From Octopus sinensis (Eukaryota), in the NCBI RefSeq assembly GCF_006345805.1, contig NC_043011.1:11470001-11534000 (forward strand): a stretch of 64,000 bases of DNA, read 5' to 3'. The first letter of the stretch is position 1. The number at the start of each line of letters is the position of its first letter. The translations under genes and the position numbers were made by a program. The notes under the pieces are model-generated. The model was given only the letters and a program-made list of their open reading frames with translations, was not told where the DNA came from and did not search any database. Positions 1-39,590 of the stretch are shown one piece after another.

Positions 1-3000
1 AAACGGCCACGATCAGATGGTGCTTTTTACGTGCCACCGGCACTGGGGCCAGCCGGGGCTTACAAACAGCCACGATCGGATGGTGCTTTTTACGTGCCAC
101 CTGCACAGGTGCCAGGTGAGGCTGGCAAACAGCCACGTTCGGATGGTGCTTTTTACGTCCCACCGGCACGGGGGCCGGGCGAGGCTGGAAAACGGCCACG
201 ATCGGATGGTGCTTTTTACGTGCCACCGGCACTGGGGCCAAGCGGGGCTGGCAAACAGCCACGATCGGATGGTGCTTTTTACGTCCCACCGGCACAGGTG
301 CCAGGCGAGGCTGGCAAACGGCCACGATCGGATGGTGCTTTTTATGTCCCACCGGCACGGGGGCCGGGCGAGGCTGGCAAACGGCCACGATCGGATGGTG
401 CTTTTTACGTGCCACCGGCACTGGGGCCAGGTGAAACTGGCAAACGGCCATGATCGGATGGTGCCGTTTACGTGCCGCCGGCACAAGGGGCAGGTGTGGC
501 CTACAAACGGCGATCATCGGATGGTGCCTTTTACGTGCCACCGGCACGTGGGCCGGGCGAGGCTGGCAAACGGCCACGATCGGATGGTGCTTTTTACGTT
601 CCACCGGCACTGGGGCCAGGTGAGGCTGGCAAATGGCCATGATCGGTGGTGCTTTTTACGTGCCACCGGCACTGGGGCCAGGCGAGGCTGGCAAACGGCC
701 ACGATCGGATGGTGTTTGTTACGTGCCACTGCACGGGGGCCAGGCGAGGCTGGCAAACGGCCACGATCGGAAGTTGCTTTTTACGTGCCACCGGCACGGG
801 GGCCAGGCGGGGCTGGCAAACGGCCATGATCAGATGGTGGTTTTTATGTGCCACCGGCATGGCGGCCGGGCGAGGCTGGCAAACGGCCATGATCGGATGG
901 TGCTTTTTACATGCCACCAGCACTGGGGCCAGGCTAGGCTGGCAAACGGCCACGATCGGATGGTGCATTTTATGCGCCAACGGCACTGGGGCCAGGCTAG
1001 GTTGGCAAACGGCCACGATCAGATGATGCTTTTTACGTGCCACAGGCACGGGGGCCAAGCGAGGCTGGCAAACGGCCATGATCGGATGGTGCTTTTTATG
1101 TGCCACCAGCACTGGGGCCAGGCGAGGCTGGCAAACGGCCCCGATCGGATGGTGCTTTTTACGTGCCACCGGCACTGGGGCCTGGCGAGGCTGGCAAATG
1201 GCCACGATCGGATGGTGCTTTTTACGTGCCAACGGCATGGGGGCCAGGCGAGGTGGCAAACGGCCACGATCTGATGGTGCTTTTTACGTGCCAGCAGCCC
1301 TGGGGCCAGGCGAGGCTGGGAAACGGCCATCATCGGATGGTGCTTTTTACGTGCCACCGGCACTGATGCCAGGCGACGCTGGCATACGGCCACGATTGGA
1401 TGGTGCCTTTTACGTGCCACCGGCACGGGGGCCAGGGGAGGCTGGCAGACGGCCACGATCGGATGGTGCTTTTTACGTGCCACCGGCACTGGGGCCACGC
1501 TAGGCTGGCAAACGGTCACGATCGGATGGTGCTATTTATGTCCCACCGGCACTGGGGCCAGGCGTGGTTGGTAAACCGCCACGATCGGATGGTGCTTTTT
1601 ACGTGCCACCGGCAAAGGGGGCCAGGCGAGGCTGGCAAACGCCCACGATCGGATGGTGCTTTTTACATGCCACTGGCACTGCAGCCAGGCGAGGCTGGCA
1701 AATGGCCATGATCGGATGGTGCTTTTTACGTCCCACCGGCACGGGTGCCAGGCGAGGCTGGCAAACGGCCACGATCGGATGGTGCTTTATATGTGCCACC
1801 GGCACTGGGGCCAGGCGAGGCTGGCAAACGGCCACGATCGGATGGTGCTTTTTACGTGCCACCGGCACGGGGCCCAGGCGAGGCTGGCAAACGGCCACGA
1901 TCGGATGGTGCTTTTTACGTGCCACCGGCATTGTGGCCAGGTGAGGCTGGCAGACGGCCACGATCGGATGGTGCTTTTCACGTGCCACCGGCATGGTGGC
2001 TAGGCGAGGCTGGGAAACGGCCACGATCGGATGGTGCTTTTTACGTGCCAACGGCACTGGGGCCAGGTGAAGCTGGCAAATGGCCATGATCGGATGGTGC
2101 TTTTTACGTGCCACCAGCACTGGGGCCAGGCTAGGCTGGCAAACGGCCACGATCGGATGGTGCATTTTATGCCCCAACGGCACTGGGGCCAGGCGAGGTT
2201 GGCAAACGGCCACGATCAGATGAGGCTTTTTACGTGCCACCGGCACTGGGGCCAGCCGGGGCTTACAAACAGCCACGATCGGATGGTGCTTTTTACGTGC
2301 CACCTGCACAGGTGCCAGGTGAGGCTGGCAAACAGCCACGTTCGGATGGTGCTTTTTACGTCCCACCGGCACGGGGGCCGGGCGAGGCTGGAAAACGACC
2401 ACGATCGGATGGTGCTTTTTACGTGCCACCGGCACTGGGGCCAAGCGGGGCTGGCAAACAGCCACGATCGGATGGTGCTTTTTACGTCCCACCGGCACAG
2501 GTGCCAGGCGAGGCTGGCAAACGGCCACGATCGGATGGTGCTTTTTATGTCCCACCGGCACGGGGGCCGGGCGAGGCTGACAAACGGCCACGATCGGATG
2601 GTGCTTTTTACGTGCCACCGGCACTGGGGCCAGGTGAAACTGGCAAACGGCCATGATCGGATGGTGCCGTTTACGTGCCGCCGGCACAAGGGGCAGGTGT
2701 GGCCTACAAACGGCGATGATCGGATGGTGCCTTTTACGTGCCACCGGCACGTGGGCCAGGCAAGGCTGGCAAACGGCCACGATCGGATGGTGCTTTTTAC
2801 GTGCCACCAGCACGGGGGCCAGGAGAGGCTGGCAAACGGCCACGATCGGATGGTGCTTTTTACGTGCCACCAGTACGGGGGCCAGGAGAGGCTGGCAAAC
2901 GGCCACGATCGGATGGTGCTTTTTATGTGCCAACGGCACTGGGGACAGGCGGGGCTGGCAAACAGCCACGATCGGATGGTGCTTTTTACGTGCCACCTGC

Positions 3001-6000
3001 ACTGGTGCCGGGCGAGGCTGGCAAACGGCCACGATCGGATGGTGCTTTTTATGTCCCAACGGCACTAGGGACAGGCGGGGCTGGCAAACAGCCACGATCG
3101 GATGGTGCTTTTTACGTGCCACCTGCACTGGGGCCGGGCGAGGCTGGCAAACGGCCACGATCGGATGGTGCTTTTTACATGCCACCGGCACGAGGGCCAG
3201 GCGAGGCTAGCAAACGGCCAAGATCGGATGGTGCTTTTTACGTTCCACCGGCACGGCGGCCAGGCGAGGCTGGCAAACGGCCACGATCGGATGGTGCTTT
3301 TTACGTGCCACCGGCACTGGGGCTGGTGAGGCTGGCAAATGGCCACGATCGGATGGTGCTTTTTACGTGCCAACGGCATGGGGGCCAGGCGAGGTGGCAA
3401 ACGGCCACGATCTGATGGTGCTTTTTACGTGCCAGCAGCCCTGGGGCCAGGCGAGGCTGGCAAACGGCCATCATCGGATGGTGCTTTTTACGTGCCACCG
3501 GCACTGATGCCAGGCGACGCTGGCATACGGCCACGATCGGATGGTGCCTTTTACGTGCCACCGGCACTGGGGCCGTATCAGACTGGCAAACGGCCATGAT
3601 CAGATGGTGCTTTTTACGTGCCACCGGCACGGGGGCCAGGGAAGGCTGGCAAACGGCCACGATCGGATGGTGCTTTTTACGTACCACCGGCATGGGGGCC
3701 AGGCGAGGCTGGCAAACGGCCAGAATCGGATGGTGCTTTTTACGTGCCACCGGCACTGGGGCCACGCTGGGCTGGCAAACGGCCACGATCGGATGGTGCT
3801 TTTTATGTGCCACCGGCACTGGGGCCAGGCGTGGTTGACAAACGGCCACGATCGGATGGTGCTTTTTACGTGCCACCGGCAAAGGGGGCCAGGCGAGGCT
3901 GGCAAACGGCCACGATCGGATGGTGCTTTTTACATGCCACTGGCACTGCAGCCAGGCGAGGCTGGCAAATGGCCATGATCGGATGGTGCTTTTTACGTGC
4001 CACCGGCACTGATGCCAGGCGAGGCTGGCAAACGGCCACGATCGGATGGTGCTTTCTATGTGCCACCGGCACTGGGGCCAGGCGAGGCTGGCAAACGGCC
4101 ACGATCGGATGGGGCTTTTTACGTGCCACCGGCACGGGGGCCAGGCGAGACTAGCAAACGGCCAAGATCGGATTGTGCTTTTTACCTGCCACCGGCACGG
4201 CGGCCAGGCGAGGCTGGCAAACGGCCACGATCGGATGGTGCTTTTTACGTGCCACCAGCACTGGGGCCAGGCTAGGCTGGCAAACAGCCACGATCGGATG
4301 GTGCATTTTATGCGCCAACGGTCCTGGGGCCAGGCGAGGTTGGCAAACGGCCATGATCAGATGGTGCTTTTTACGTGCCACCGGCACTGGGGCCAGCGGG
4401 GGCTTACAAACAGCCACGATCGGATGGTGCTTTTTATGTGCCACCTGCGCAGGTGCCAGGCGAGGCTGGCAAACAGCCACGATCGGATGGTGCTTTTTAC
4501 GTCCCACCGGCATGGGGGCCAGGCGAGGCTGGCAAACGGCCACGATCGGTGCTTTTTACGTCCCACCGGCACGGGGGCCAGGCGAGGGTGGCAAACGGCC
4601 ACGATCGGATGGTGCTTTTTACATCCCACTGGGACTGGGGCCAGGCGAGGCTGGCAAATGGCCATGATCGGATGGTGCTTTTGACGTGCCACCGGCACGG
4701 GGGCCAAGAGGGACTGGCAAACGGTCACGATCGGATGGTGCTTTTTATGTGCCACCGGCACTGGGGCCAGGCGAGGCTGGCAAACGGCCACGATCGGATG
4801 GTGATTTTTACGTGCCACCAGCATGGCGGTCAGGCGAGGCTGGTAAACGGCCACGATCGGGTGGTGCTTTTTACGTGCCACCGGCACGGGCCAGACGAGG
4901 CTGGCAAACGGCCTTGATCGGATGGTGCTATTTACATGCCACCGGCATTGTGGCCAGGTGAGGCTGGCAGACGGCCACGATCGGATGGTGCTTTTTACGT
5001 GCCACCGGCACTGGGGCCAGGTGAGCCTGGCAAACGGCCACGATCGGATGCTACTTTTTACGTGCCACTGGCACTGGGGCCAGGTGAGGCTGGCAAACGG
5101 CCACGATCGGATGGTGCTTTTTACGTCGACTGGCACTGGGGCCAGGCGAGGCTGGCAAACGGCCATTATCGAATGGTGCTTTTTACGTGCCGCCGGCACA
5201 GGTGCCAGGCGAGGCTGGCAAACGGCCATGATCGGAGGGTGCTTTTTACGTGCGACCAGCACGGCTGCCAGGCGAGGCTGGCAAACGGCCACGATCAGAT
5301 GGTGCTTTTTACGTGCCACCGGCACGGGGGCCAGGCGAGGCTGCCAAACGGCCACGATCGGATGGTGCTTTTTACATGCCACTGGCACTGCAGCCAGGCG
5401 AGGCTGGCAAATGGCCATGATCGGATTGTGCTCTTTACGTGCCACCGGCACGGGTGCCAGGCGAGGCTGGCAAACGGTCACGATCGGATGGTGCTTTTTA
5501 CGTGCCACCGGCACTGGGGCCAGGTGAGCCTGGCAAACGGCCACGATCGGATGCTACTTTTTACGTGCCACTGGCACTGGGGCCAGGTGAGGCTGGCAAA
5601 CGGCCACGATCGGATGGTGCTTTTTACGTCCACTGGCACTGGGGCCAGGCGAGGCTGGCAAACGGCCATTATCGAATGGTGCTTTTTACGTGCCGCCGGC
5701 ACGGGGGCCAAGCGAGGCTATCAAACGGCCAAGATCGGATGGTGCTGTTTACGTGTCACCGGCACGGCGGCCAGGCGAGGCTGGCAAACGGCCATGATCG
5801 GATGGTGCTTTTTACGTGCCACCAGCACTGGGGCCAGGCTAGGCTGGCAAACGGCCACGATCGGATGGTGCATTTTATGCGCCAACGGCACTGGGGCCAG
5901 GCTAGGTTGGCAAACGGCCACGATCAGATGATGCTTATTACGTACCACAGGCACGGGGCCCAGGCGAGGCTGGCAAACGGCCATGATCGGATGGTGCTTT

Positions 6001-9000
6001 TTATGTGCCACCGGCACTGGGGCCGGGCGAGGCTGGCAAATGCCCACGATCGGATGGTGCTTTTCACGTGCCACCGGCACGGGGGCCAGGCAAGGCTATC
6101 AAACGGCCAAGATCGGATGGTGCTTTTTACGTGCCACCTGCACAGGTGCCAGGCGAGGCTAGCAAACAGCCACGATCGGATGGTGCTTTTTACGTCCCAC
6201 CGGCATGGGGGCCGGGCGAGGCTGGAAAACGGCCACGATCGGATGGTGCTGTTTACGTACCACCGGCACTGGGGCCAGGCTGGGCTGGAAAACAGCCACG
6301 ATTGGATGGTGCTTTTTACGTCCCACTGGCACAGGTGCCAGGCGAGGCTGGCAAATGGCCACGATTGGATGATGCTTTTTATGTCCCACCGGCACGGGGG
6401 TTGGGCGAGGCTGGCAAATGGCCACGATCGGATGGTGCTTTTTACGTTCCACCGGCACTGGGGCCAAGTGAGGCTGGCAAATGGCCATGATCGGTGGTGC
6501 TTTTTACGTGCCACCGGCACTGGGGCCAGGCGAGGCTGGCAAACGGCCACGATCTGATGGTGCTTTTTACGTGCCAGCAGCCCTGGGGCCAGGCGAGGCT
6601 GCCAAACGGCCATCATCGGATGGTGCTTTTTACGTGCCACAGGCACTGGGGCCAGGCGACGTTGGTATACGGCCACGATCGGATGGTGCCTTTTATGTTC
6701 CACCGGCATGGGGGCCAGGCGAGGCTGGCAAACAGCCAGGATCGGATGGTGCTTTTTACGTGCCACGCTAGGCTGGCAAACGGCCATGATCGGATGGTGC
6801 TTTTTATGTGCCACCGGCACTGGGGCCAGGCGAGGCTGGCAAATGGCCAAGATCGGATGGTGCTTTTCACGTGCCACCGGCACGGGGGCCAGGCAAGGCT
6901 ATCAAACGGCCACGATCAGATGGTGCTTTTTACATGCCACTGGCACTGCAGCCAGGCGAGCCTGGCAAATGGCCATGATCGGATGGTGCTTTTTACGTGC
7001 CACCGTCACGGGTGCCAGGCGGGGCTGGCAAACGGCCACGATCGGATGTTGCTTTTTGTGTGCCACCGGCACTGGGGCCAGGCGAGGCGGGCAAGCGGCC
7101 ACGATCGGATGGTGCTTTTTACGTGCCACCGGCACGGGGGCCAGGCGAGGCTAGCAAATGGCCAAGATCGGTTGGTGCTTTTTACGTGCCACCGGCACGG
7201 CGGCCAGGCGAGGCTGGCAAACGGCCACGATCGGACGGTGCCTTTTACGTGCCACCGGCACTGGGGCCAGGTGTGGCTGGCAAACGGCCTTGATCGTATG
7301 GTTCTTTATACGTGCCACCAGCACTGGGGCCAGGCTAGGCTGGCAAACGGCCACGATCGGATGGTGCATTTTACGCGCCAACGGTACTACTGGGGCCAGG
7401 CGAGGTTGGCAAACGGCCACGATCAGATGGTGCTTTTTACGTGCCACCGGCACTGGGGCCAGCGGGGCTTACAAACAGCCACGATCGGATGGTGCTTTTT
7501 ACGTGCCACCTGCACAGGTGCCAGGCGAGGCTGGCAAACAGCCACGATCGGATGGTGCTTTTTACGTCCCACCGGCATGGGGGCCGGGCGAGGCTGGGAA
7601 ACGGCCATGATCGGATGGTGCTTTTTACGTGCCACCGGCACAGGTGCCAGGCGACGCTGGCGAATGGCCATGATCGGATGGTGCTTTTTACGTGCCACCG
7701 GCACGGCGGCCAGGCGAGGCTGGCAAACGGCCATGATCGGATGGTGCTTTTCACGTTCCACCGGCACTGGGGCCAGCCGGGGCTTACAAACAGCCACGAT
7801 CGGATGGTGCTTTTTACGTGCCACCTGCACAGGTGCCAGGTGAGGCTGGCAAACAGCCACGTTCGGATGGTCCTTTTTACGTCCCACCGGCACGGGGGCC
7901 GGGCGAGGCTGGAAAACGGCCACGATCGGATGGTGCTTTTTACGTGCCACCGGCACTGGGGCCAAGCGGGGCTGGCAAACAGCCACGATCGGATGGTGCT
8001 TTTTACGTCCCCCGGCACAGGTGCCAGGCGAGGCTGGCAAACGGCCACGATCGGATGGTGCTTTTTATGTCCCACCGGCACGGGGGCCGGGCGAGGCTGG
8101 CAAACGGCCACGATCGGATGGTGCTTTTTACGTGCCACCGGCACTGGGGCCAGGTGAAACTGGCAAACGGCCATGATCGGATGGTGCGTTTTACGTGCCG
8201 CCGGCACAAGGGGCAGGTGTGGCCTACAAACGGCGATGATCGGATGGTGCCTTTTACGTGCCACCGGCACGGGGGCCGGGCGAGGCTGGCAAACGGCCAC
8301 GATCGGATGGTGCTTTTTACGTTCCACCGGCACTGGGGCCAGGTGAGGCTGGCAAATGGCCATGATCGGTGGTGCTTTTTACGTGCCACCGGCACTGGGG
8401 CCAGGCGAGGCTGGCAAACGGCCACGATCGGATGGTGTTTGTTACGTGCCACTGCACGGGGGCCAGGCGAGGCTGGCAAACGGCCACGATCGGAAGTTGC
8501 TTTTTACGTGCCACCGGCACGGGGGCAGGCGGGGCTGGCAAACGGCCATGATCAGATGGTGGTTTTTATGTGCCACCGGCATGGCGGCCGGGCGAGGCTG
8601 GCAAACGGCCATGATCGGATGGTGTTTTACATGCCACAGCACTGGGGCCAGGCTAGGCTGGCAAACGGCCACGATCGGATGGTGCTTTTATGCGCCAACG
8701 GCACTGGGGCCAGGCTAGGTTGGCAAACGCCACGATCAGATGATGCTTTTTACGTGCCACAGGCACGGGGGCCAGCGAGGCTGGCAACGGCCATGATCGG
8801 ATGGTGCTTTTTATGTGCCACCAGCACTGGGGCCAGGCGAGGCTGGCAAACGGCCCCGATCGGATGGTGCTTTTTACGTGCCACCGGCACTGGGGCCTGG
8901 CGAGGCTGGCAAATGGCCACGATCGGATGGTGCTTTTTACGTGCCAACGGCATGGGGGCCAGGCGAGGAGGTGGCAACGGCCACGATCTGATGGTGCTTT

Positions 9001-12000
9001 TTACGTGCCAGCAGCCCTGGGGCCAGGCGAGGCTGGGAAACGGCCATCATCGGATGGTGCTTTTTACGTGCCACCGGCACTGATGCCAGGCGACGCTGGC
9101 ATACGGCCACGATTGGATGGTGCCTTTTACGTGCCACCGGCACGGGGGCCAGGGGAGGCTGGCAGACGGCCACGATCGGATGGTGCTTTTTACGTGCCAC
9201 CGGCACTGGGCCACGCTAGGCTGGCAAACGGTCACGATCGGATGGTGCTATTTATGTCCCACCGGCACTGGGGCCAGGCGTGGTTGGTAAACCGCCACGA
9301 TCGGATGGTGCTTTTTACGTGCCACCGGCAAAGGGGGCCAGGCGAGGCTGGCAAACGCCCACGATCGGATGGTGCTTTTTACATGCCACTGGCACTGCAG
9401 CCAGGCGAGGCTGGCAAATGGCCATGATCGGATGGTGCTCTTTACGTCCCACCGGCACGGGTGCAGGCGAGGCTGGCAAACGGCCACGATCGGATGGTGC
9501 TTTATATGTGCCACCGGCACTGGGGCCAGGCGAGGCTGGCAAACGGCCACGATCGGATGGTGCTTTTTACGTGCCACCGGCACGGGGCCAGGCGAGGCTG
9601 GCAAACGGCCACGATCGGATGGTGCTTTTTACGTGCCACCGGCATTGTGGCCAGGTGAGGCTGGCAGACGGCCACGATCGGATGGTGCTTTTCACGTGCC
9701 ACCGGCATGGTGGCTAGGCGAGGCTGGCAAACGGCCACGATCGGATGGTGCTTTTTACGTGCCAACGGCACTGGGGCCAGGTGAAGCTGGCAAATGGCCA
9801 TGATCGGATGGTGCTTTTTACGTGCCACCAGCACTGGGGCCAGGCTAGGCTGGCAAACGGCCACGATCGGATGGTGCATTTTATGCGCCAACGGCACTGG
9901 GGCCAGGCGAGGTTGGCAAACGGCCACGATCAGATGAGGCTTTTTACGTGCCACCGGCACTGGGGCCAGCCGGGGCTTACAAAAGCCACGATCGGATGGT
10001 GCTTTTTACGTGCCACCTGCACAGGTGCCAGGTGAGGCTGGCAAACAGCCACGATCGGATGGTGCTTTTTACGTCCCACCGGCACGGGGGCCGGGCGAGG
10101 CTGGAAAACGACCACGATCGGATGGTGTTTACGTGCCACCGGCACTGGGGCCAAGCGGGGCTGGCAAACGGACCATGATCGGATGGTGCCGTTTACGTGC
10201 CGCCGGCACAAGGGGCAGGTGTGGCCTACAAACGGCGATGATCGGATGGTGCCTTTTACGTGCCACCGGCACGTGGGCCAGGCAAGGCTGGCAAACGGCC
10301 ACGATCGGATGGTGCTTTTTACGTGCCACCAGCACGGGGGCCAGGAGAGGCTGGCAAACGGCCACGATCGTGGTGGTTTTTACGTGCCACCAGTACGGGG
10401 GCAGGAGAGGCTGGCAAACGGCCACGATCGGATGGTGCTTTTTATGTGCCAACGGCACTGGGGACAGGCGGCGGGGCTGGCAAACAGCCACGATCGGATG
10501 GTGCTTTTTACGTGCACCTGCACTGGTGCCGGGCGAGGCTGGCAAACGGCCACGATCGGATGGTGCTTTTTATGTCCCAACGGCACTAGGGACAGGCGGG
10601 GCTGGCAAAACCACGATCGGATGGTGCTTTTTACGTGCCACCTGCACTGGGGCCGGGCGAGGCTGGCAAACGGCCACGATCGGATGGTGCTTTTTACATG
10701 CCACCGGCACGAGGGCCAGGCGAGGCTAGCAAACGGCCAAGATCGGATGGTGCTTTTTACGTTCCACCGGCACGGCGGCCAGGCGAGGCTGGCAAACGGC
10801 CACAATCGGATGGTGCTTTTTACGTGCCACCGGCACTGGGGCCTGGTGAGGCTGGCAAATGGCCACGATCGGATGGTGCTTTTTACGTGCCAACGGCATG
10901 GGGGCCAGGCGAGGTGGCAAACGGCCACGATCTGATGGTGCTTTTTACGTGCCAGCAGCCCTGGGGCCAGGCGAGGCTGGCAAACGGCCATCATCGGATG
11001 GTGCTTTTTACGTGCCACCGGCACTGATGCCAGGCGACGCTGGCATACGGCCACGATCGGATGGTGCCTTTTACGTGCCACCGGCACTGGGGCCGTATCG
11101 ACTGGCAAACGGCCATGATCAGATGGTGCTTTTTACGTGCCACCGGCACGGGGGCCAGGGAAGGCTGGCAAACGGCCACGATCGGATGGTGCTTTTTACG
11201 TACCACCGGCATGGGGGCCAGGCGAGGCTGGCAAACGGCCAGAATCGGATGGTGCTTTTACGTGCCACCGGCACTGGGGCCACGCTGGGCTGGCAAACGG
11301 CCACGATCGGATGGTGCTTTTTATGTGCCACCGGCACTGGGGCCAGGCGTGGTTGACAAACGGCCACGATCGGATGGTGCTTTTTACGTGCCACCGGCAA
11401 AGGGGGCCAGGCGAGGCTGGCAAACGGCCACGATCGGATGGTGCTTTTTACATGCCACTGGCACTGCAGCCAGGCGAGGCTGGCAAATGGCCATGATCGG
11501 ATGGTGCTTTTTACGTGCCACCGGCACTGATGCCAGGCGAGGCTGGCAAACGGCCACGATCGGATGGTGCTTTTCACGTGCCACCGGCACTGGGGCCAGG
11601 CAAGGCTATCAAACGGCCACGATCAGATGGTGCTTTTTACATGCCACTGGCACTGCAGCCAGGCGAGCCTGGCAAATGGCCATGATCGGATGGTCCTTTT
11701 TACGTGCCACCGTCACGGGTGCCAGGCGGGGCTGGCAAACGGCCACGATCGGATGTTGCTTTTTGTGTGCCACCGGCACTGGGGCCAGGCGAGGCGGGCT
11801 AGCGGCCACGATCGGATGGTGCTTTTTACGTGCCACCGGCACGGGGGCCAGGCGAGGCTAGCAAATGGCCAAGATCGGTTGGTGCTTTTTACGTGCCACC
11901 GGCACGGCGGCCAGGCGAGGCTGGCAAACGGCCACGATCGGACGGTGCCTTTTACGTCCCACCGGCACTGGGGCCAGGTGTGGCTGGCAAACGGCCTTGA

Positions 12001-15000
12001 TCGTATGGTTCTTTATACGTGCCACCAGCACTGGGGCCAGGCTAGGCTGGCAAACGGCCACGATCGGATGGTGCATTTTACGCGCCAACGGTACTGGGGC
12101 CAGGCGAGGTTGGCAAACGGCCACGATCAGATGGTGCTTTTTACGTGCCACCGGCACTGGGGCCAGCCGGGGCTTACAAACAGCCACGATCGGATGGTGC
12201 TTTTTACGTGCCACCTGCACAGGTGCCAGGCGAGGCTGGCAAACAGCCACGATCGGATGGTGCTTTTTACGTCCCACCGGCATGGGGGCCGGGCGAGGCT
12301 GGGAAACGGCCATGATCGGATGGTGCTTTTTACGTGCCACCGGCACAGGTGCCAGGCGACGCTGGCGAATGGCCATGATCGGATGGTGCTTTTTACGTGC
12401 CACCGGCACGGCGGCCAGGCGAGGCTGGCAAACGGCCATGATCGGATGGTGCTTTTCACGTTCCACCGGCACTGGGGCCAGGCGAGGTTGGCAAACGGCC
12501 ACGATCGGATGGTGGTTTTTACGTCCCACCGGCACTGGGGCCAGGTGAAGCTGGCAAACGGCCATGATCGGATGGTGCTTTTTACATGCCACCGGCACAG
12601 GGGCCAGGTGAGGCTGGCAAACGGCCACGATCGGATGGTGCTTTTTATGTGCCACAGGCACTGGGACAAGGCGAGGCTGGCAAACGGCCATCATCGGATG
12701 GTTATTTTTACGTGCCACTGCACGGGGGCCAGGCAAGGTTGTCAAACGGCCACGATCGGATGGTGCTTTTTATGTGCCACCGGTATGGGGTCCAGGCGAG
12801 GCTGGCAAACGGTCACGATCGGACGGTGCTTCTTACGTTCCACCGGCACGGGGGCCAGGCGGGGCTGGCAAACGGCCATGATCGGATGGTGCATTTTATG
12901 TGCCACCGGCACTGGGGCCAGTTGAGGCTGGCAAACGACCACGATCGGATGGTACTTTTTACATGCCACCGGCACTGGGGCCAGGAGAGGCTGGCAAACG
13001 GCCACGATCGGATGGTGCTTTTTACGACCACTGGCACTGGGGCCAGGCGAGGCTGGCAAACGGCCATGATCGGATGGTGCTTTTCACGTGCCACCGGCAC
13101 TGGGGCCAGGCGAGGCTGGCAAACGCCCACGATCCCATGGTGCTTTTTACGTGCCACCGGCACCGGGGCCAGGTGAAGCTGGCAAACGGCCATGATCAGA
13201 TGGTGCTTTTTACGTGCCACCGGCACGGGGCCCAGGTGAGGCTGTCAAACGGCCACGATCGGATGGTGCTTTTTACGTGCCACCGGTACGGGGTCCAGGC
13301 GAGGCTGGCAAACACCCACGATCGGACGGTCCTTTTTACGTGCCACCGCCACGGGGCCCAGGCGAGACTGCCAAACGGCCATGATCAGATGGTACTTTTT
13401 ACGTGCCACCGGCACGGGGGCCAGGCAAGGCTGGCAAACGGCCACGATCGGATGGTGCTTTTTACGTGCCACTGGCACGGGGGCCAGAAGAGGCTGGCAA
13501 ACGGCCATGATCGGATGGTGCTTTTTATGTGCCAACGGCACTAGGGACAGGCGGGGCTGGCAAACAGCCACGATCGGATGGTGCTTTTTACGTGCCACCT
13601 GCACTGGGGCCGGGCGAGGCTGGCAAACGGCCACGATCGGATGGTGCTTTTTACATGCCACCGGCACGAGGGCCAGGTGACGCTAGCATACGGCCAAGAT
13701 CGGATGGTGCTTTTTACGTTCCACCGGCACGGCGGCCAGGCGAGGCTGGCAAACGGCCACGATCGGATGGTGCTTTTTACGTGCCACCGGCACTGGGGCC
13801 AGGCGAGCCTGGTGAATCGCCACGATCGGATGGTGCTTTTTACGTGCCAACGGCATGGGGGCCAGTCGAGGTGGCAAACGGCCACGATCTGATCGTGCTT
13901 TTTACGTGCCAGCAGCCCTGGGGCCAGGCGAGGCTGGCAAACGGCCATAATCGGATGGTGCTTTTTACGTGCCACCGGCACTGGGGCCAGGCGACGCTGG
14001 TATACGGCCACGATCAGATGGTGCCTTTTACGGTCCACCGGCACGGGGGCCAGGGGAGGCTGGCAAACGGCCACGATCGGATGGTGCTTTTTACGTGCCA
14101 CCGGCATGGGGGCCAGGCGAGGCTGGCAAACAGCCAGGATCGGATGGTGCTTTTTACGTGACACCGGCACTGGGGCCGCGCTAGGCTGGCAAACGGCTAC
14201 GATCGGATGGTGCTATTTATGTGCCACCGGCACTGGGGCCAGGCGTGGTTGGCAAACGGCCACGATCGGATGGTGCTTTTTACGTGCCACCGGCAAAGGG
14301 GGCCAGGCGAGGCTGGCAAACGCCCACGATAGGATGGTGCTTTTTACATGCCACTGGCACTGCAGCCAGGCGAGGCTTGCAAATGGCCATGATCGGATGG
14401 TGCTCTTTACGTGCCACCGTCACGGGTGCCAGGCGGGGCTGGCAAACGGCCACGATCGGATGGTGCTTTTTATGTGCCACCGGCACTAGGGCCAGGCGAG
14501 GCTGGTAAACGGCCACGATCGGATGGTGTTTTTTACGTGCCACCGGCACGGGGGCCAGGCGAGGCTAGCAAATGGCCAAGATCGGATGGTGCTTTTTACG
14601 TGCAACCGGCACGGCGGCCAGGCGAGGCTGGCAAACGGCCACGATCGGACGGTGCTTTTTACGTGCCACCGGCGCTGGGGCCAGGTGTGGCTGGCAAACG
14701 GCCTTGATCGTATGGTTCTTTATACGTGCCACCAGCACTGGGGCCAGGCTAGGCTGGCAAACGTCCATGATCGGATGGTGCATTTTACGCGCCAACGGCA
14801 CTGGGGCCAGGCGAGGTTGGCAAACGGCCACGATCAGATGGTGCTTTTTACGTGCCACCGGCACTGGGGCCAGCCGTGGCTTACAAACAGCAACGATCGG
14901 ATGGTGCGTTTTACGTGCCACCTGCACAGGTGCCAGGCGAGGCTGGCAAACAGCCACGATCGGATGGTGCTTTTTACGTCCCACCGGCATGGGGGCCGGG

Positions 15001-18000
15001 CGAGGCTGGCAAACGGCCATGATCGGATGGTGCTTTTTACGTGCCACCGGCACAGGTGCCAGGCGAGGCTGGCAAATGGCCATGATCGGATGGTGCTTTT
15101 TACGTGCCACCGGCACGGCGGCCAGGCGAGGCTGGCAAACGGCCATGATCGGATGGTGCTTTTCACGTTCCACCGGCACTGGGGCCAGGCGAGGCTGGCA
15201 AACGGCCACGATCGGATGGTGGTTTTTACGTCCCACCGGCACTGGGGCCAGGTGAGGCTGGCAAACGGCCATGATCGGATGGTGCTTTTTACGTGCTACC
15301 GGCACGGGGGCCAGGTGTGGCTGGCAAACGGCCACGATCGGATGGTGCTTTTTACATGCCAAAGGCACTGGGACAAGGCGAGGCTGGCAAACGGCCATGA
15401 TCGGATGGTTATCTTTACGTGCCACCGCACAGGGGCCAGGCGAGGCTGTCAAACGGCCACGATCGGATGGTGCTGTTTACGTGCCACCGGTACGGGGTGC
15501 AGGCGAGGCTGGCAAACGCCCACGATCGGACGGTCCTTTTTACGTGCCACCGCCACGGGGCCCAGGCGAGACTGCCAAACGGCCATGATCAGATGGTACT
15601 TTTTACGTGCCACCGGCACGGGGGCCAGGCAAGGCTGGCAAACGGCCATGATCGGATGGTGCTTTTCACGTCCCACTGGCACGGGGGCCAGAAGAAGCTG
15701 GCAAACGGCCACGATCGGATGGTGCTTTTTATGTGCCAACGGCACTAGGGACAGGCGGGGCTGGCAAACAGCCACGATCGGATGGTGCTTTTTACGTGCC
15801 ACCTGCACTGATGCCGGGCGAGACTGGCAAACGGCCACGATCGGATGGTGCTTTTTACATGCCACCGGCACGAGGGCCAGGTGACGCTAGCATACTGCCA
15901 AGATCGGATGGTGCTTTTTACGTTCCACCGGCATGGCGGCCAGGCGAGGCTGGCAAACTGCCACGATCTGATGGTGCTTTTTACGTGCCAGCAGCCCTGG
16001 GGCCAGGCGAGGCTGGCAAACGGCCATCATCGGATGGTGCTTTTTACGTGCCACCGGCACTGGGGCCAGGCGACGCTGGTATACGGCCACGATCGGATGG
16101 TGCCTTTTACGTTCCACCGGCACGGGGGCCAGGGGAGGCTGGCAAACGACCACGATCGGATGGTGCTTTTTACGTGCCACCGGGATGGGGGCCAGGCGAG
16201 GCTGGCAAACAGCCAGGATCGGATGGTTATTTTTACGTGCCACCGGCACTGGGGCCACGCTGCGCTGGCAAACGGCCACGATCGGATGGTGCTATTTATG
16301 TGCCACCGGCACTGGGGCCAGGCGTGGTTGGCAAACGCCCACGATCGGATGGTGCTTTTTACGTGCCACCGGCAAAGGGGGCCAGGCGAGGCTGGCAAAC
16401 GCCCACGATAGGATGGTGCTTTTTACATGCCACTGGCACTGCAGCCAGGCGAGGCTGGCAAATGGCCATGATCGGATGGTGCTCTTTACGTGCCACCGTC
16501 ACGGGTGCCAGGCGGGGCTGGCAAACGGCCACGATCGGATGGTGCTTTTTATGTGCCACCGGCACTGGGGCCAGGCGAGCCTGGCTAACGGCCACGATCG
16601 GATGGTGTTTTTTACGTGCCACCGGCACGGGGGCCAGGCGAGGCTAGCAAATGGCCAAGATCGGATGGTGCTTTTTACGTGCTACCGGCACGGGGGCCAG
16701 CTGAGGCTGGCAAACGGCCACGATCGGATGGTGCTTTTTACATGCCAAAGGCGAGGCTGGCAAACGGCCATGATCGGATGGTTACTTTTACGTGCCACCG
16801 CACAGGGGCCAGTCGAGGCTGTCAAACGGCCACGATCGGATGGTGCTGTTTACGTGCCACCGGTACGGGGTCCAGGCGAGGCTGGCAAACGCCTACGATC
16901 GGACGGTCCTTTTTACGTGCCACCGCCACGGGGCCCAGGCGAGACTGCCAAACGGCCATGATCAGATGGTACTTTTTACGTGCCACCGGCACGGGGGCCA
17001 GGCAAGGCTGGCAAACGGCCACGATCGGATGGTGCTTTTCACGTGCCACTGGCACAGGGGCCAGAAGAAGCTGGCAAACGGCCGCGATCGGATGGTGCTT
17101 TTTATGTGCCAACGGCACTAGGGACAGGCGGGGCTGGCAAACAGCCACGATCGGATGGTGCTTTTTACGTGCCACCTGCACTGGTGCCGGGCGAGACTGG
17201 CAAACGGCCACGATCGGATGGTGCTTTTTACATGCCACCGGCACGAGGGCCAGGTGACGCTAGCATACGGCCAAGATCGGATGGTGCTTTTTACGTTCCA
17301 CCGGCATGGCGGCCAGGCGAGGCTGGCAAACGGCCACGATCGGATGGTGCTTTTTACGTGCCACCGGCACTGGGGCCAGGCGAGGCTTGTAAATGGCCAC
17401 GATCGGATGGTGCTTTTTACGTGCCAACGGCATGGGGGCCAGTCGAGGTGGCAAACTGCCACGATCTGATGGTGCTTTTTACGTGCCAGCAGCCCTGGGG
17501 CCAGGCGAGGCTGGCAAACGGCCATCATCGGATGGTGCTTTTTACGTGCCACCGGCACTGGGGCCAGGCGACGCTGGTATACGGCCACGATCGGATGGTG
17601 CCTTTTACGTTCCACCGGCACGGGGGCCAGGGGAGGCTGGCAAACGGCCACGATCGGATGGTGCTTTTTACGTGCCACCGGGATGGGGGCCAGGCGAGGC
17701 TGGCAAACAGCCAGGATCGGATGGTTATTTTTACGTGCCACCGGCACTGGGGCCACGCTACGCTGGCAAACGGCCACGATCGGATGGTGCTATTTATGTG
17801 CCACCGGCACTGGGGCCAGGCGTGGTTGGCAAACGCCCACGATCGGATGGTGCTTTTTACGTGCCACCGGCAAAGGGGGCCAGGCGAGGCTGGCAAACGC
17901 CCACGATAGGATGGTGCTTTTTACATGCCACTGGCACTGCAGCCAGGCGAGGCTGGCAAATGGCCATGATCGGATGGTGCTCTTTACGTGCCACCGTCAC

Positions 18001-21000
18001 GGGTGCCAGGCGGGGCTGGCAAACGGCCACGATCGGATGGTGCTTTTTATGTGCCACCGGCACTGGGGCCAGGCGAGCCTGGCAAACGGCCAAGATCGGA
18101 TGGTGCTTTTTACGTGCTACCGGCACGGGGGCCAGCTGAGGCTGGCAAACGGCCACGATCGGATGGTGCTTTTTACATGCCAAAGGCGAGGCTGGCAAAC
18201 GGCCATGATCGGATGGTTACTTTTACGTGCCACCGCACAGGGGCCAGGCGAGGCTGTCAAACGGCCACGATCGGATGGTGCTGTTTACGTGCCACCGGTA
18301 CGGGGTCCAGGCGAGGCTGGCAAACGCCCACGATCGGACGGTCCTTTTTACGTGCCACCGCCACGGGGCCCAGGCGAGACTGCCAAACGGCCATGATCAG
18401 ATGGTACTTTTTACGTGCCACCGGCACGGGGGCCAGGCAACGCTGGCAAACGGCCACGATCGGATGGTGCTTTTTACGTGCCACTGGCACGGGGGCCAGA
18501 AGAGGCTGGCAAACGGCCACGATCGGATGGTGCTTTTTATGTGCCAACGGCACTAGGGACAGGCGGGGCTGGCAAACAGCCACGATCGGATGGTGCTTTT
18601 TACGTGCCACCTGCACTGGTGCCGGGCGAGGCTGGCAAACGGCCACGATCGGATGGTGCTTTTTACATGCCACCGGCACGAGGGCCAGGTGACGCTAGCA
18701 TACGGCCAAGATCGGATGGTGCTTTTTACGTTCCACCGGCATGGCGGCCAGGCGAGGCTGGCAAACGGCCACGATCGGATGGTGCTTTTTACGTGCCACC
18801 GGCACTGGGGCCAGGCGAGGCTGGTAAATGGCCACGATCGGATGGTGCTTTTTACGTACCAACGGCATGGGGGCCAGTCGAGGTGGCAAACTGCCACGAT
18901 CTGATGGTGCTTTTTACGTGCCAGCAGCCCTGGGGCCAGGCGAGGCTGGCAAACGGCCATCATCGGATGGTGCTTTTTACGTGCCACCGGCACTGGGGCC
19001 AGGCGACGCTGGTATACCGCCACGATCGGATGGTGCCTTTTACGTTCCACCGGCACGGGGGCCAGGGGAGGCTGGCAAACGGCCACGATCGGATGGTGCT
19101 TTTTACGTGCCACCGGCATGGGGGCCAGGCGAGGCTGGCAAACAGCCAGGATCGGATGGTGCTTTTTACGTGCCACCGGCACTGGGGCCACGCTAGGCTG
19201 GCAAACGGCCACGATCGGATGGTGCTATTTATGTGCCACCGGCACTGGGGCCAGGCGTGGTTGGCAAACGGCCACGATCGGATGGTGCTTTTTACGTGCC
19301 ACCGGCAAAGGGGGCGAGGCTGGCAAACGCCCACGATAGGATGGTGCTTTTTACATGCCACTGGCACTGCAGCCAGGCGAGGCTGGCATATGGCCATGAT
19401 CGGATGGTGCTCTTTACGTGCCACCGTCACGGGTGCCAGGCGGGGCTGGCAAACGGCCACGATCGGATGGTTCTTTTTATGTGCCACCGGCACTGGGGCC
19501 AGGCGAGGCTGGCAAACGTCCACGGTCGGATGGTGTTTTTTACGTGCCACCGGCACGGGGGCCAGGCTAGGCTGGCAAACGTCCAAGATCGGATGGTGCA
19601 TTTTACGCGCCAACGGCACTGGGGCCAGGCGAGGTTGGCAAACGGCCACGATCAGATGGTGCCTTTTACGTGCCACCGGCACTGGGGCCAGCCGGGGCTT
19701 ACAAACAGCCACGATCGGATGGTGCTTTTTACGTGCCACCTGCACAGGTGCCAGGCGAGGCTGGCAAACAGCCACGATCGGATGGTGCTTTTTACGTACC
19801 ACCGGCATGGGGGCCGGGCGAGGCTGGCAAACGGCCATGTTCGGATGGTGCTTTTTACGTGCCACCGGCACAGGTGCCAGGCGAGGCTGGCAAATGGCCA
19901 TGATCGGATGGTGCTTTTTACGTCCCACCGGCACGGCGGCCAGGCGAGGCTGGCAAACGGCCATGATCGGATGGTGCTTTTCACGTTCCACCGGCACTGG
20001 GGCCAGGCGAGGCTGGCAAACGGCCACGATCGGATGGTGGTTTTTACGTCCCACCGGCACTGGGGCCAGGTGAGGCTGGCAAACGGCCATGATTGGATGG
20101 TGCTTTTTACGTGCTACCGGCACGGGGGCCAGGTGAGGCTGGCAAACGGCCACGATCGGATGGTGCTTTTTACGTGCCACAGGCACTGGGACAAGGCGAG
20201 GCTGGCAAACGGCCATCATCGGATGGTACTTTTTACGTGCCACTGCACGGGGGCCAGGCAAGGCTGTCAAACGGCCACGATCGGATGGTGCTTTTTATGT
20301 GCCACCGGTATGGGGTCCAGGCGAGGCTGGCAAACGGCCACGATCGGACGGTGCTTTTTACGTGCCACCGGCATGGGGGCCAGGCGGGGCTGGCAAACGG
20401 CCATGATCGGATGGTGCTTTTTATGTGCCACCGGCACTGGGGCCAGGTGAGGCTGGCAAACGCCCACGATCGGATGGTACTTTTTACGTGCCACTGGCAC
20501 TTGGGCCAGGAGAGGCTGGCAAACGGCCACGATCGGATGTTGCTTTTTACGTCCACTGGCACTGGGGCCAGGCGAGGCTCGCAAACGGCCATGATCGGAT
20601 GGTGCTTTTCACGTGCCACCGGCACGGGGGCCAGGTGAGGCTGGCAAACGCCCACGATCCAATGGTGCTTTTTACGTCCCACCGGCACTGGGGCCAGGTG
20701 AGGCTGGCAAACGGCCATGATTGGATGGTGGTTTTTACGTGCCACCGGCACCGGGGCCAGGTGAGGCTGGCAAACGGCCATGATCAGATGGTGCTTTTTA
20801 CGTGCCACCGGCACGGGGCCCAGGTGAGGCTGGCAAACGGCCACGATCGGATGGTGCTTTTTACATGCCAAAGGCACTGGGACAAGGCGAGGCTGGCAAA
20901 CGGCCATGATCGGATGGTTATTTTTACGTGCCACCGCACAGGGGCCAGGCGAGGCTGTCAAACAGCCACGATCGGATGGTGCTTTTTACGTGCCACCGGT

Positions 21001-21900
21001 ACGGGGTCCAGGCGAGGCTGGCAAACGCCCACGATCGGACGGTTCTTTTTACGTGCCACCGCCACGGGGCCCAGGCGAGGCTGGCAAACGCCCATGATCG
21101 GATGGTGCTTTTTATGTGCCACCGGCACTGGGGCCAGGTCTGGCCGGCAAACGGCCACGATCGGATGGTACTTTTTACGTGCCACTGGCACTGGGGCCAG
21201 GCGAGGCTGGCAAACGTCCACGATCCAATGGTGCTTTTTATGTGCCACTGGCACTGGGGCCAGGCGAGGCTGGCAAACGCCCACGATCGGACGGTTCTTT
21301 TTACGTGCCACCGCCACGGGGCCCAGGCGAGGCTGGCAAACGGCCATGATCGGATGGTGCTTTTTACGTGCTACCGGCACTGGGTCCAGGCGAGGTTGGC
21401 AAACGGCGACGATTGGATGGTGCTTTTTACGTGCCACTGGCACTGGGGCCAGGCGAGGTTGGCAAACGGCCATGATCGGATGGTGCTTTTTACGTGCAAC
21501 CGGCACAGGTGCCAGGCGAGGTTGGCAAACAGCCACAATCGGATGGTGCTTTTTACGTGCCACCGGCACGGGGGCCAGGCGAGGCTGGCAAACGGCCATG
21601 ATCGGATGGTGCTTTTTACGTGCAACCGGCACGGCGGCCAGTCGAGGCTGGCAAACGGCCACGATCGGATGGTGCTTTTTACGTGCCAAGTGCACAGGTG
21701 CCAGGCGAGGCTGGCAATGGCCATGATCGGATTGGTACATTTTACGTGCCACCAGCACTGTGGCCAGGCGAGGCTGGCAAACGGCCGTGATCGGATGGTG
21801 CACTTTACGTGCCAAGTGCACAGGTTCCAGGCGAGGCTGGCAATGGCCATGATCGGATTGGTACATGTTATGTGCCACCAGCACAGAAGCCAGTCAGCCA
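1..21900. repeat. 63-bp tandem satellite array (>21.9 kb, runs off the left edge), consensus GGCGAGGCTGGCAAACGGCCACGATCGGATGGTGCTTTTTACGTGCCACCGGCACTGGGGCCA
   Basis: Unit recurs head-to-tail every ~63 bp with point variants and occasional 61-64 bp units. It degenerates at ~21880-21900 and is followed by (CT)n and AT-rich DNA. Confidence 0.99.
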
Positions 21901-22267
21901 AGTTCGGATGGGGCCACTCTCTTTCTCTCTCCCTCCCTCTCTCTCTCTCATTCATGTGTGCACAGAAAGTGCAATGCAGGAAACATTAAACATGTAATGT
22001 TTCCTGCATTATATACATGGGAAGTGCACTTCCTATGCAAGTTGAACTTAAAATCTTCTTCATGGCAAATACTTATAACACTATTAAAGTGACTGCTCAC
22101 AAAAAAAAAATAGTAGTAACCAGCAGATTCATTCTATAAATCTATCGCATATCGTAGCAAATTCAGACATATTGCAGCACTTATAAAATAAAGAATATTA
22201 AAGATTGTTCCCAAAAAAGAAAAATTCATCATGGAAATCAAAAATACCAAATAAACCTTTGTAACCA

Positions 22268-23637: not shown

Positions 23638-23798
23638 GTCTTGCTTGGTTTATCATTCCATATACCCATATAGACGTCCATCTACAAAATTTTGCTTACA
23701 CCAACTGGCGCCTCTACCTTTCTGTCTGTGTCATACCTAGTTTGTCATCAGTGATTTTCTTCTTTTTTTTACCAGAAAGTCCGAAGTTTCTACTTTCG
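23638..23798 (+). CDS. SV2-like MFS transporter, first exon visible in the window (GLAW...WRLY...PESPKFLLS)
   Basis: Polypyrimidine tract and cag acceptor ending 23637; gtaag donor at 23799. Carries the MFS WR and PESPxFL motifs; starts phase 1, ends phase 0. Confidence 0.93.
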
Positions 23799-24584: not shown

Positions 24585-24880
24585 TTCGAAATCAATCAAC
24601 ATCAATGGAAATTGTAGTTGACGATACCAGTGCCAGTGGCACATAAGAGAACCATCTGAACGTGGCCATTGCCAGCACCACCCCGACTGGCCTCCATGCC
24701 GGTTGCACGTAAAAAGTACCCACTACACTCACGGAGTGGTTGGCGTTAGGAAGGGCATCCAGCTGTAGAAACACCGCCAGGTCAGACTGGGCCTAGTGCA
24801 GCCTTCTGGCTTCTCAGACACCAGTTGAACCGTCCAACCCATGCTAGCATGGAAAGCGGATGTTAAACGATGATGATGAC
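24585..24880 (+). mobile_element. 5'-truncated RTE 3' UTR with 1-2 diverged 63-bp units and (GAT)n tail
   Basis: Same order as the 29027-29515 element, ending CCATGCTAGCATGGAAAGCGGATGTTAAAC(GAT)n. Confidence 0.82.
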
Positions 24881-26552: not shown

Positions 26553-26636
26553 ATTGGAAATGAATCTGAAGCCCTTGCTATCCTGAAATTGATTTACAAG
26601 AAAAACCACACAAGGGCATATGGTCACAAGTATCAA
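26553..26636 (+). CDS. SV2-like exon (IGNESEALAILKLIYKKNHTRAYGHKYQ)
   Basis: ccag acceptor, gtgagt donor, 84 nt phase 0/0. Resembles the G..DEA..ILK.IH..N segment that follows PESP in SV2 proteins. Confidence 0.9.
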
Positions 26637-27845: not shown

Positions 27846-27949
27846 GTTAGTATGCAATAGTCTCCTCCGAAATCCACTTTGCTGATCGTATGGGTTTCAT
27901 GTACAGTACTGGTAGTCTGTGATCAGAACTGAGGATGATGCGGCCCATT

Positions 27950-29025: not shown

Positions 29026-29026
29026 G

Positions 29027-29515
29027 CTGATCTGGCAGTGTTTCTACAGCTGGATGCCCTTCCTAACGCCAACCACTCCGTGAGTGTAGTGGGTGCTTTT
29101 TACGTGCCACCTGCACAGGTGCCAGACGAGGCTGGCAAATGGCCACGATCGGATGGTGCTTTTTACATGCCACCGGCACAGGTGCCAGACAAGGCTGCCA
29201 ACAGCCACAATCGGATGGTGCTTTCTACGTGCCACCTGCACGGAGGCCAGTCGGGGCGGCGCTGGCAACATCCACGTTCAGATGGTTCTCTTACATGCCA
29301 CCGGCACTGGTATCACAGCTACAATTTCCATTGATGTTGATCGATTTTGATTTTGATTTTCACTTGCCTCAACAGGTCTTCACAAGTAGGGTTTCTGTCA
29401 CAAGAAGGAAAGGTATGCATAAGTGGGCTGGCAATGTCCCAGGTTGAGGCTACGGGTTATGGTCTCACTTGTCCTGCCGGGTCTTCCCACGCACAGCATA
29501 CTTCCAAAGGTCTAG
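29027..29515 (-). mobile_element. RTE LINE ORF end plus 3' UTR carrying ~3-4 copies of the 63-bp satellite unit
   Basis: Minus strand reads DLWKYAVRGKTRQDK*, then UTR, then satellite-type units (29091-29310), then GGCGTTAGGAAGGGCATCCAGCTGTAGAAA. Confidence 0.8.
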
Positions 29516-39357: not shown

Positions 39358-39590
39358 CATCATCATCATCATCATCATCATCATTTAACGTCCGTTTTCC
39401 ATGCTAGCATGGGTTGGACGATTTTGACTGAGGGTTGGCAACCAGATGGCTGCACCAGGCTCCAATCTTGATCTGGCAGAGTTTCTACAGCTGGATGCTC
39501 TTCCTAACGCCAACCACTCCGAGAGTGTAGTGGATGCTTTTTACGTGCCACCTGCACAGGGGCCAGTGAAGCGATGTTGGTAACGATCAC
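39358..39590 (-). mobile_element. RTE 3' end with (CAT)n tail and one satellite-like unit
   Basis: Reverse complement of the tail seen at 24720-24880; GCTTTTTACGTGCCACCTGCAC at ~39536. Confidence 0.82.

What the first reader, a model, noticed from the sequence alone, without database searches (positions are those of the whole stretch)
1..21900. 22-kb satellite apparently born from a minisatellite in the 3' UTR of an RTE LINE
Seen: the 63-bp unit also occurs as about 1, 1.5, 3.5 and 3.5 copies in four dispersed elements (39358-39590, 24585-24880, 29027-29515, 63010-63410). It always sits just before the AGGAAGGGCATCCAGCTGTAG segment that leads to the (GAT)n tail, and at 29027-29515 it follows what reads as an RTE ORF end. 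The last array unit (GCACAGAAGCCAGTCA, ~21881) matches the variant at ~63080. Inference: this window holds a graded series from LINE-borne minisatellite to a ~350-copy satellite, with the LINE seeding new arrays.
Basis: partly seen in the sequence, partly recalled or inferred. Interest (0 to 1): 0.75.

Follow-up and report, generated by a model that had tools for sequence, protein, structure and literature searches.

The report
Retrotransposon tail repeat grown 466-fold
A 63-base repeat that a common jumping gene carries a few times in its tail stands about 466 times in a row inside one such tail, filling 90% of an intron of a synaptic-vesicle-type gene; it likely grew on the spot by recombination, and dozens of other copies in this genome (likely an octopus) hold shorter arrays of it.

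Summary
Confirmed and extended. The array runs 7.4 kb left of the window: about 466 units, 29.3 kb. Its left end joins the predicted LINE tail and (GAT)n; its right end is the LINE's 5'-most unit type, of the same subfamily as the tail. So it lies inside one 5'-truncated copy of an endonuclease + reverse-transcriptase LINE (RTE-like; clade not tested by tree), antisense in a 32.8-kb intron of an SV2-like gene. Ordinary copies hold 1-4 units. Elsewhere I found arrays of 6-125 units; 62 of 63 end in the LINE tail, units cluster by locus, and duplicated insertions differ in unit number (21 vs about 74). This favours repeated growth in place over capture from a satellite. It is a single-locus array, not a homogenised multi-locus satellite. 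Of 34 placed arrays of 12+ units, 24 lie on the ten smallest chromosomes (baseline 10 of 70; a sample, not a census). The kind is known (Ogre 3'UTR satellites, squamate SINE satellites); I found no RTE or cephalopod case in print. This scan noted the same phenomenon, with a 69-bp unit, on other DNA of this genome.

The parts
1..21884 (-). 63-bp tandem array, window part (347.7 of about 466 units). It continues left to window coordinate -7443 (L003:2558), where it joins the LINE tail and (GAT)n at L003:2381-2557.
21865..21911 (-). 5'-most unit type of the LINE 3' UTR with an internal deletion; 5' truncation point of the host copy; no target-site duplication seen
21913..21961 (.). (TC)n-rich microsatellite flank at the 5' junction
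23638..23798 (+). Exon of an SV2-like transporter gene (SV2A residues 310-362). The preceding exon (SV2A 269-308) ends at L003:847, so the array lies in one 32,790-bp phase-1 intron.
26553..26636 (+). Next exon candidate of the same gene (AG..GT borders, frame continues; read by eye)
24585..24880 (+). 5'-truncated LINE 3' end: head, about 1.5 units, full tail and (GAT)n
29027..29515 (-). LINE ORF end, unique 3' UTR, about 3.5 units, tail cut short
39358..39590 (-). LINE 3' end with under one full unit, full tail
63010..63410 (+). LINE 3' end with about 3.5 units (two of the 67-bp type), full tail; same broad subfamily as the array's host

Best explanation
The array is the 3'-UTR minisatellite of one 5'-truncated LINE copy, which sits antisense in an intron of an SV2-like gene and likely grew there from a few units to about 466 by repeated unequal exchange and gene conversion. 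Shown: the LINE carries the unit as part of its 3' UTR (ORF stop, about 160 bp unique, 1-4 units in a fixed order of types, about 150 bp tail, (GAT)n); the array keeps the first unit type at one end and the tail at the other; many other copies hold 6-125 units with locus-own variants; unit number changes after insertion. Inferred: retrotransposition scatters about 10^5 seeds, a small share expand independently, and the driver is recombination between misaligned units rather than one-unit slippage or rolling circles. No function for the host is proposed; the array is most likely neutral cargo of a long intron.
For: Junctions. Head and tail variants of the host agree with one subfamily (13 of 19 copies with this head variant have this tail variant, against 3 of 31 with the other head). 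29 of 30 top hits to the unique UTR show units then tail. 62 of 63 arrays of 6+ units end in the tail and 30 of 63 also keep a head marker (C27a corrected). A 14-15-unit copy has head, tail and a 13-bp target duplication (L130); a 125-unit copy has head and tail (C30). Nearest neighbour of a unit lies in its own array for 250 of 351 units, tied for 53, elsewhere for 48; chance 1.7%. Same insertion, different length: 21 vs about 74 units with 95-96% identical flanks, and 2/5/5 in a tandem triplication. Inside the big array, neighbours are no more alike than distant units (8.45 vs about 8.3 differences), while blocks of 4-11 units recur at offsets of 6-304 units and cover 179 of 460 units. CpG transitions run 4 times above other transitions (0.098 vs 0.024 per column), as expected of old methylated DNA rather than read errors.
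Against: Timing is not shown. Units are 7.5% from their consensus and the host tail is 5.7-7.5% from its relatives, so the array is about as old as the insertion. Across 31 arrays, unit divergence was below tail divergence against the pooled majority (3.1 vs 5.4%) but not against the nearest copies (3.1 vs 3.8%, 19 of 31, p = 0.31). The host copy has no target duplication, so a later deletion or an exchange between two copies of one subfamily is not excluded. No short allele or empty site of this locus was seen. One 70-unit array has no tail (C18a). Three arrays share a unit variant (L124, L125, L137), so some 'private' marks are subfamily marks. Recombination itself was not observed.
Confidence: 0.78

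Rival explanations
1. The array was made largely at insertion: the reverse transcriptase slipped back over the repeat many times, or a source element with a long array was copied, and later recombination only reshuffled it.
For: Unit and tail divergence are similar at this locus and the unit variation is star-like with no gradient. Position-picked copies reach 8 and 11 motif counts, so sources may carry more than 4 units.
Against: Duplicated insertions differ in unit number. Arrays carry variants fixed in most of their units and absent elsewhere. 29 kb is far above the length of the element (about 3.5-4 kb from the shared extents).
Confidence: 0.1
2. Capture: an older satellite gave the unit to the LINE, and this array is a piece of that satellite with a LINE tail beside it.
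For: This array is the most diverged of 36 blocks measured. An unassembled satellite cannot be excluded from an assembly.
Against: The array sits in register between a LINE head unit and a LINE tail inside a gene intron. A 68-base stretch equal to its majority form occurs 3 times in the genome, all in this array. Its private variant is in 0 of 172 short-copy units. Long arrays nearly always have LINE ends.
Confidence: 0.04
3. Rolling-circle amplification of an excised circle of units and its reinsertion into the LINE copy built the array in one or a few steps.
For: Multi-unit blocks are duplicated; the C8 array has inverted blocks, a sign of template-switch repair.
Against: No dominant higher-order period: offsets are scattered from 6 to 304 units. 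An early circle of 1-2 units could have been erased by later mutation.
Confidence: 0.06
4. Assembly artefact: a short repeat was expanded by the assembler.
For: One assembly only; no read spans the array in my data.
Against: 272 distinct sequences among 390 63-bp units, with a CpG-biased spectrum. Contigs of two public runs (X3, X18) hold the array's own terminal variants at single-copy depth; X3 may be the sample behind the assembly. The exact length could still be off.
Confidence: 0.02

Closest known systems
Ogre/Tat LTR-retrotransposon 3'UTR repeats that expand into satellites (PisTR-A; nine Lathyrus sativus satellites; PMC7004042, abstract and Discussion read)
   Same: Short tandem repeats are a built-in, variable part of the element's 3' UTR, are scattered by retrotransposition and occasionally expand; all stages coexist.
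   Different: Here a non-LTR element in an animal. Arrays are single-locus, at most 29 kb in my sample, keep both element ends and have locus-own variants. They crowd on small chromosomes, whereas the Lathyrus arrays lie in primary constrictions.
SINE-derived satellites (sSats) of squamates
   Same: Arrays of up to about 1000 units with a terminal unit that runs on into the retroposon end; graded lengths; uneven chromosomal position (subtelomeric).
   Different: sSats arise by new duplication of part of a non-autonomous SINE and long loci are homogeneous within and between loci. Here the repeat already exists in an autonomous LINE and long arrays are not homogenised between loci.
Other element-derived repeats in the review PMC9659126 (passages and Table 1 read): cetacean common satellite (L1 3' end), chicken HinfI/SCR1 (CR1), 18HT (HeT-A/TART 3' UTR), DINE central tandem repeats, Tetris TIR-220
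   Same: Tandem repeats derived from 3' or internal parts of mobile elements, including LINEs.
   Different: The word RTE does not occur in that review (0 hits). The L1 and CR1 cases are monomers cut from unique element sequence, not a pre-existing internal minisatellite.
RTE-clade LINEs as sources of microsatellites (PMC2887409, abstract only) and octopus RTEs (PMC9115989; passages, section 8 and rows of supplement 1 read)
   Same: One ORF with endonuclease and RT, frequent 5' truncation, simple-repeat tail.
   Different: Lepidopteran RTEs have a very short 3' UTR of simple repeats; RTE-2_OV has a C2H2 finger and a microsatellite 3' UTR. This element has a PHD-like insert after the RT core and a 63-bp minisatellite. 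Whether it equals the O. bimaculoides element of that paper (3206 nt) was not tested.

Membership tests
LINE, RTE clade | AP endonuclease and reverse transcriptase in one ORF | tested here: met
   Pfam Exo_endo_phos E=2.5e-6 in L163 and RVT_1 E=3e-13 to 2e-22 in L170, L035, L040, L056. Continuity of the ORF is read from overlapping frames of different copies; no intact copy was seen.
LINE, RTE clade | Copies share the 3' end and are variably 5'-truncated | tested here: met
   30 loci: shared upstream extent from about 0 to over 1500 bp
LINE, RTE clade | Short tandem-repeat tail instead of poly(A) | tested here: met
   (GAT)n in 54 of 63 arrays by script and at the host copy
LINE, RTE clade | Target-site duplication | tested here: inconclusive
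   6 bp or more in 15 of 136 copies vs 4.4% in shuffled pairs; 13 bp at L130; none at the big array. 5' ends were set by BLAST and may be off.
LINE, RTE clade | RT groups with RTE references in a tree | not tested
   No reference set at hand; the Atlas look-up failed. The RTE label rests on recalled motifs and architecture.
Satellite DNA in the strict sense | Long contiguous array (tens of kb or more) | tested here: met
   29.3 kb, about 466 units
Satellite DNA in the strict sense | Family homogenised across several long loci | tested here: not met
   Units cluster by locus; mean distance 3.8 within vs 8.7 between arrays
Satellite DNA in the strict sense | Heterochromatic, centromeric or subtelomeric position | not testable with these tools
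   Lies in a gene intron 11.5 Mb into a 67.9-Mb chromosome; chromatin unknown
Element-borne tandem repeat that expands in place (Ogre 3'UTR type) | Unit present as short arrays inside dispersed elements | tested here: met
   (59 incidental copies: median 2, maximum 9 motif counts)
Element-borne tandem repeat that expands in place (Ogre 3'UTR type) | Graded series of expanded arrays still flanked by element sequence | tested here: met
   6 to about 466 units
Element-borne tandem repeat that expands in place (Ogre 3'UTR type) | Expansion favoured in a particular chromosomal setting | tested here: inconclusive
   24 of 34 on C21-C30 vs 5 of 37 and 5 of 33 for LINE copies; sample from best-scoring hits, centromeres unknown

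The most novel reading that the evidence does not exclude
This LINE is a natural reporter: about 10^5 near-identical minisatellite seeds scattered over the genome, of which those on the smallest chromosomes expand several times more often, each along its own path. That would show that long arrays are born where recombination per base is high, the reverse of the low-recombination pattern reported for Ogre-derived satellites, and would let expansion rates be mapped against recombination, methylation and element age in one genome.
Probability: 0.35. Interest if true: 0.65.

Novelty: new member of a known kind. Interest (0 to 1): 0.42.

Why it matters
How a short repeat becomes a long array is usually argued from end products. 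Here seed, intermediates and a 29-kb product all keep the ends of the element that delivered them, so each array can be tied to its insertion and subfamily. It extends the Ogre 3'UTR route to an animal LINE and offers many replicate loci to test which genome regions favour expansion. The array also makes up 90% of an intron of an SV2-like gene, an example of how introns in this genome grow; no effect on the gene is shown.

Tried and rejected
Orthologue or empty site through public runs: the left junction gave no cover of the unique flank in 4 of 4 runs; at the right junction the microsatellite breaks the contigs, so no record bridges it. Summed contig depths show no excess of unit over tail, but are not copy numbers and were not used. 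Special DNA fold of the unit: z between +0.5 and -0.9 for three window stretches (two identical) on both strands, so no hairpin argument. Fixed higher-order repeat: none. Array age against element age: result depends on the baseline, not used as support. C14:17.2 Mb looked like a long array but is a tandem triplication of element plus flank. My motif counter over-counted some short clusters and cut C27a early; counts were corrected. An exact-match, genome-wide chromosome baseline for the LINE tail was not obtained, so the enrichment rests on smaller baselines. Pfam missed the endonuclease in a C-terminal fragment. The ESM Atlas was not available. A by-sequence look-up of earlier findings returned nothing. 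Literature searches found no description of this unit or array; Repbase, Dfam and subscription journals were not searchable, and two large supplements of PMC9115989 could not be read and may hold the element's sequence.

Full report
Observation. TRF gives one array at window 1-21884, period 63, 347.7 copies, GC about 62% against 23-45% in the rest of the window. The window is G000:C15:11470001-11534000 in a 2.72-Gb genome. That the animal is an octopus is my inference from recalled repeat types and from earlier notes of this scan; no tool named it. In 100 kb fetched to the left the array continues without a gap to window coordinate -7443, about 29.3 kb and about 466 units. The four dispersed elements are present as described, with the corrections given under the observation check.

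The parent element. A search with the unique part of the 29027-29515 copy had 1610 candidates, 40 were scored and I took the best 30 as loci. In 29 of 30 the same order follows: units, tail, and in most a (GAT)n end; one is broken by another insertion. Upstream sharing runs from about 0 to over 1500 bp, the pattern of 5' truncation. The long copies encode a reverse transcriptase (Pfam RVT_1) with a weak PHD-like insert after it (E 0.036 and 1.7e-4, below Pfam's cut-off) and an N-terminal endonuclease (Exo_endo_phos, E 2.5e-6). This is a LINE; RTE is likely from architecture and recalled motifs but was not tested by a tree. A 72-base tail stretch has 3501 exact matches; 5 of 153 held tails match it exactly, which scales to about 10^5 copies, a rough figure. 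Ten copies picked by position from the first 100 listed matches on C1 hold 1-11 motif counts; 59 incidental copies have a median of 2 and a maximum of 9.

The array lies inside one copy. In short copies the unit types have an order: a 67-bp type at or near the start, and a distinct last type in 47 of 55 multi-unit copies. The big array starts with the 67-bp type (with a deletion) and ends with the last type and the tail. Its head and tail variants belong together: 13 of 19 copies with this head variant have this tail variant, against 3 of 31 with the other common head (copies without a scorable head or tail were left out). No target duplication is visible, but duplications of 6 bp or more are found in only 15 of 136 copies (4.4% in shuffled pairs). 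Exons on both sides match consecutive residues of SV2A (269-308 and 310-362, E 1e-8 and 7e-3; SV2B E 2e-6 for the second) and join in phase 1, so the element fills 29,531 of 32,790 bp of one intron, antisense to the gene.

The graded series. Two searches with multi-unit queries (39 candidates scored of 4215 and of 12485) and one exact pattern (34 matches) gave the loci that I fetched (one weak locus, on C17, was not fetched). They hold 63 arrays of 6 or more units apart from C8, with sizes of about 466, 125, 102, 74, 70, 44, 43, 39, 33 and down; C8 holds about 85 units in four blocks of alternating direction and ends in the tail. 62 of the 63 end at the start of the tail, 58 include the AGGAAGGGCATCC segment, and 30 keep a head marker (with C27a corrected). 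The exception is C18a. The big array is the largest that these searches found; this is not a census.

Direction and independence. A 68-base stretch equal to the array's majority form occurs 3 times in the genome, all in this array. Its commonest private variant is in 148 of 458 units, 7 of 1225 units of other arrays and 0 of 172 units of short copies. In a sample of up to 10 units from each of 36 array blocks plus 172 short-copy units, the nearest neighbour lay in the same block for 250 of 351, was tied for 53 and lay elsewhere for 48; chance is 1.7%. The C8 array and a separate short copy share both an unusual unit and an unusual tail, so unit type follows the host subfamily. Unit number changes after insertion: one insertion duplicated on C27 has 21 and about 74 units with flanks 95-96% identical, and a tandem triplication has 2, 5 and 5. 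These results fit repeated growth in place and do not fit capture from a master satellite.

Mechanism. Units of the big array are 7.5% from their majority, with CpG transitions four times the other transitions. Adjacent units are no more alike than distant ones, which argues against one-unit slippage as the recent mode. Twenty runs of 4-11 near-identical units recur at offsets of 6 to 304 units and cover 179 of 460 units, with no dominant period. I read this as unequal exchange and patch-wise gene conversion (inference; the link to minisatellite germ-line turnover is recalled knowledge). Against a simple 'late growth' story, the array is about as diverged as its tail, and across 31 arrays the comparison is not significant once the nearest copies are the baseline (p = 0.31; the pooled baseline gave 3.1 vs 5.4%). 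Early growth, or a longer seed at insertion, remains possible. The unit has no unusual fold.

Position. 24 of 34 placed arrays of 12+ units lie on C21-C30, about 10% of the genome (nine lengths from the fetch calls, C22 estimated); 2 lie on C1-C10. LINE copies from the same tool fall there in 5 of 37 and 5 of 33 cases (Fisher p 1e-6 for the first, 2e-8 pooled). Incidental copy density is 5.7, 10.0 and 10.1 per 100 kb on large, middle and small chromosomes, and the listed part of C1 has the genome's mean density of the exact 72-mer. Caveats: best-hit sampling, baselines drawn from longer copies, an unrelated repeat gave 14 of its top hits on C21-C30, and the largest array itself is on a middle-sized chromosome.

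Reality check. 272 of 390 63-bp units are distinct. Contigs of runs X3 and X18 carry the array's terminal variants at single-copy depth, with one more terminal block than the assembly or a variant of it; X3 may be the assembled sample. No record spans a junction or the array.

Known and new. The route from a 3'UTR repeat to long arrays is established for Ogre elements (PMC7004042) and a close animal parallel exists in squamate SINE satellites (PMC10702118); the review PMC9659126 lists L1, CR1, HeT-A, DINE and Tetris cases and no RTE. A recent octopus repeat annotation does not mention satellites (PMC13282606: first third read, term search 0 hits), and PMC9115989 does not mention tandem repeats. 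Searches found no account of this repeat; Repbase and Dfam were not checked. An earlier unreviewed note of this scan (e1-10336020) describes the same picture with a 69-bp unit, about 400 copies, in another intron of this genome; I did not test that locus and do not count it as support. Verdict: real, well supported, a new member of a known kind, valuable mainly as a many-locus natural experiment. Interest 0.42.

Noticed in passing
L003:727-847, L004 near window -13282, window 23638-23798, 26553-26636, about 44370 and 46116: Exons of an SV2/SVOP-like MFS transporter gene on the + strand that spans the whole window.
   Followed up: partly
L095 (G000:C8:75.982-75.987 Mb): About 85 units in four blocks of alternating orientation with sharp junctions inside the unit; the blocks are partly duplicates of each other.
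   Followed up: partly
L104 + L115 (G000:C18:17.259-17.264 Mb): 70-unit array without the LINE tail; it switches half way to a homogeneous 56-bp unit; an 11-bp inverted match lies in its two flanks.
   Followed up: partly
L159:360-1010 (G000:C1:49.269 Mb): Another subfamily whose 3' UTR repeats a longer block of roughly 190 bp that contains the 63-bp core.
   Followed up: no
L035:1663-2883, L056:3090-4292: PHD-like zinc finger inserted after the RT core of the LINE ORF (Pfam PHD below cut-off).
   Followed up: no
window 27880-28410 and 28720-29030, minus strand; L056:1-1899: Fragments of a second, BovB-like LINE family (by eye; RVT_1 hit in L056). The 29027-29515 copy abuts one of them.
   Followed up: no
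L065, L102, L123 with L080/L117: Small segmental duplications that carry the same LINE insertion with different unit numbers.
   Followed up: partly
L167, L168, L169: Three unplaced contigs with 99-100% identical sequence, likely redundant assembly.
   Followed up: no
window 33797-34446, 40074-40466, 46904-47275: Short tandem duplications of 269, 157 and 184 bp.
   Followed up: no
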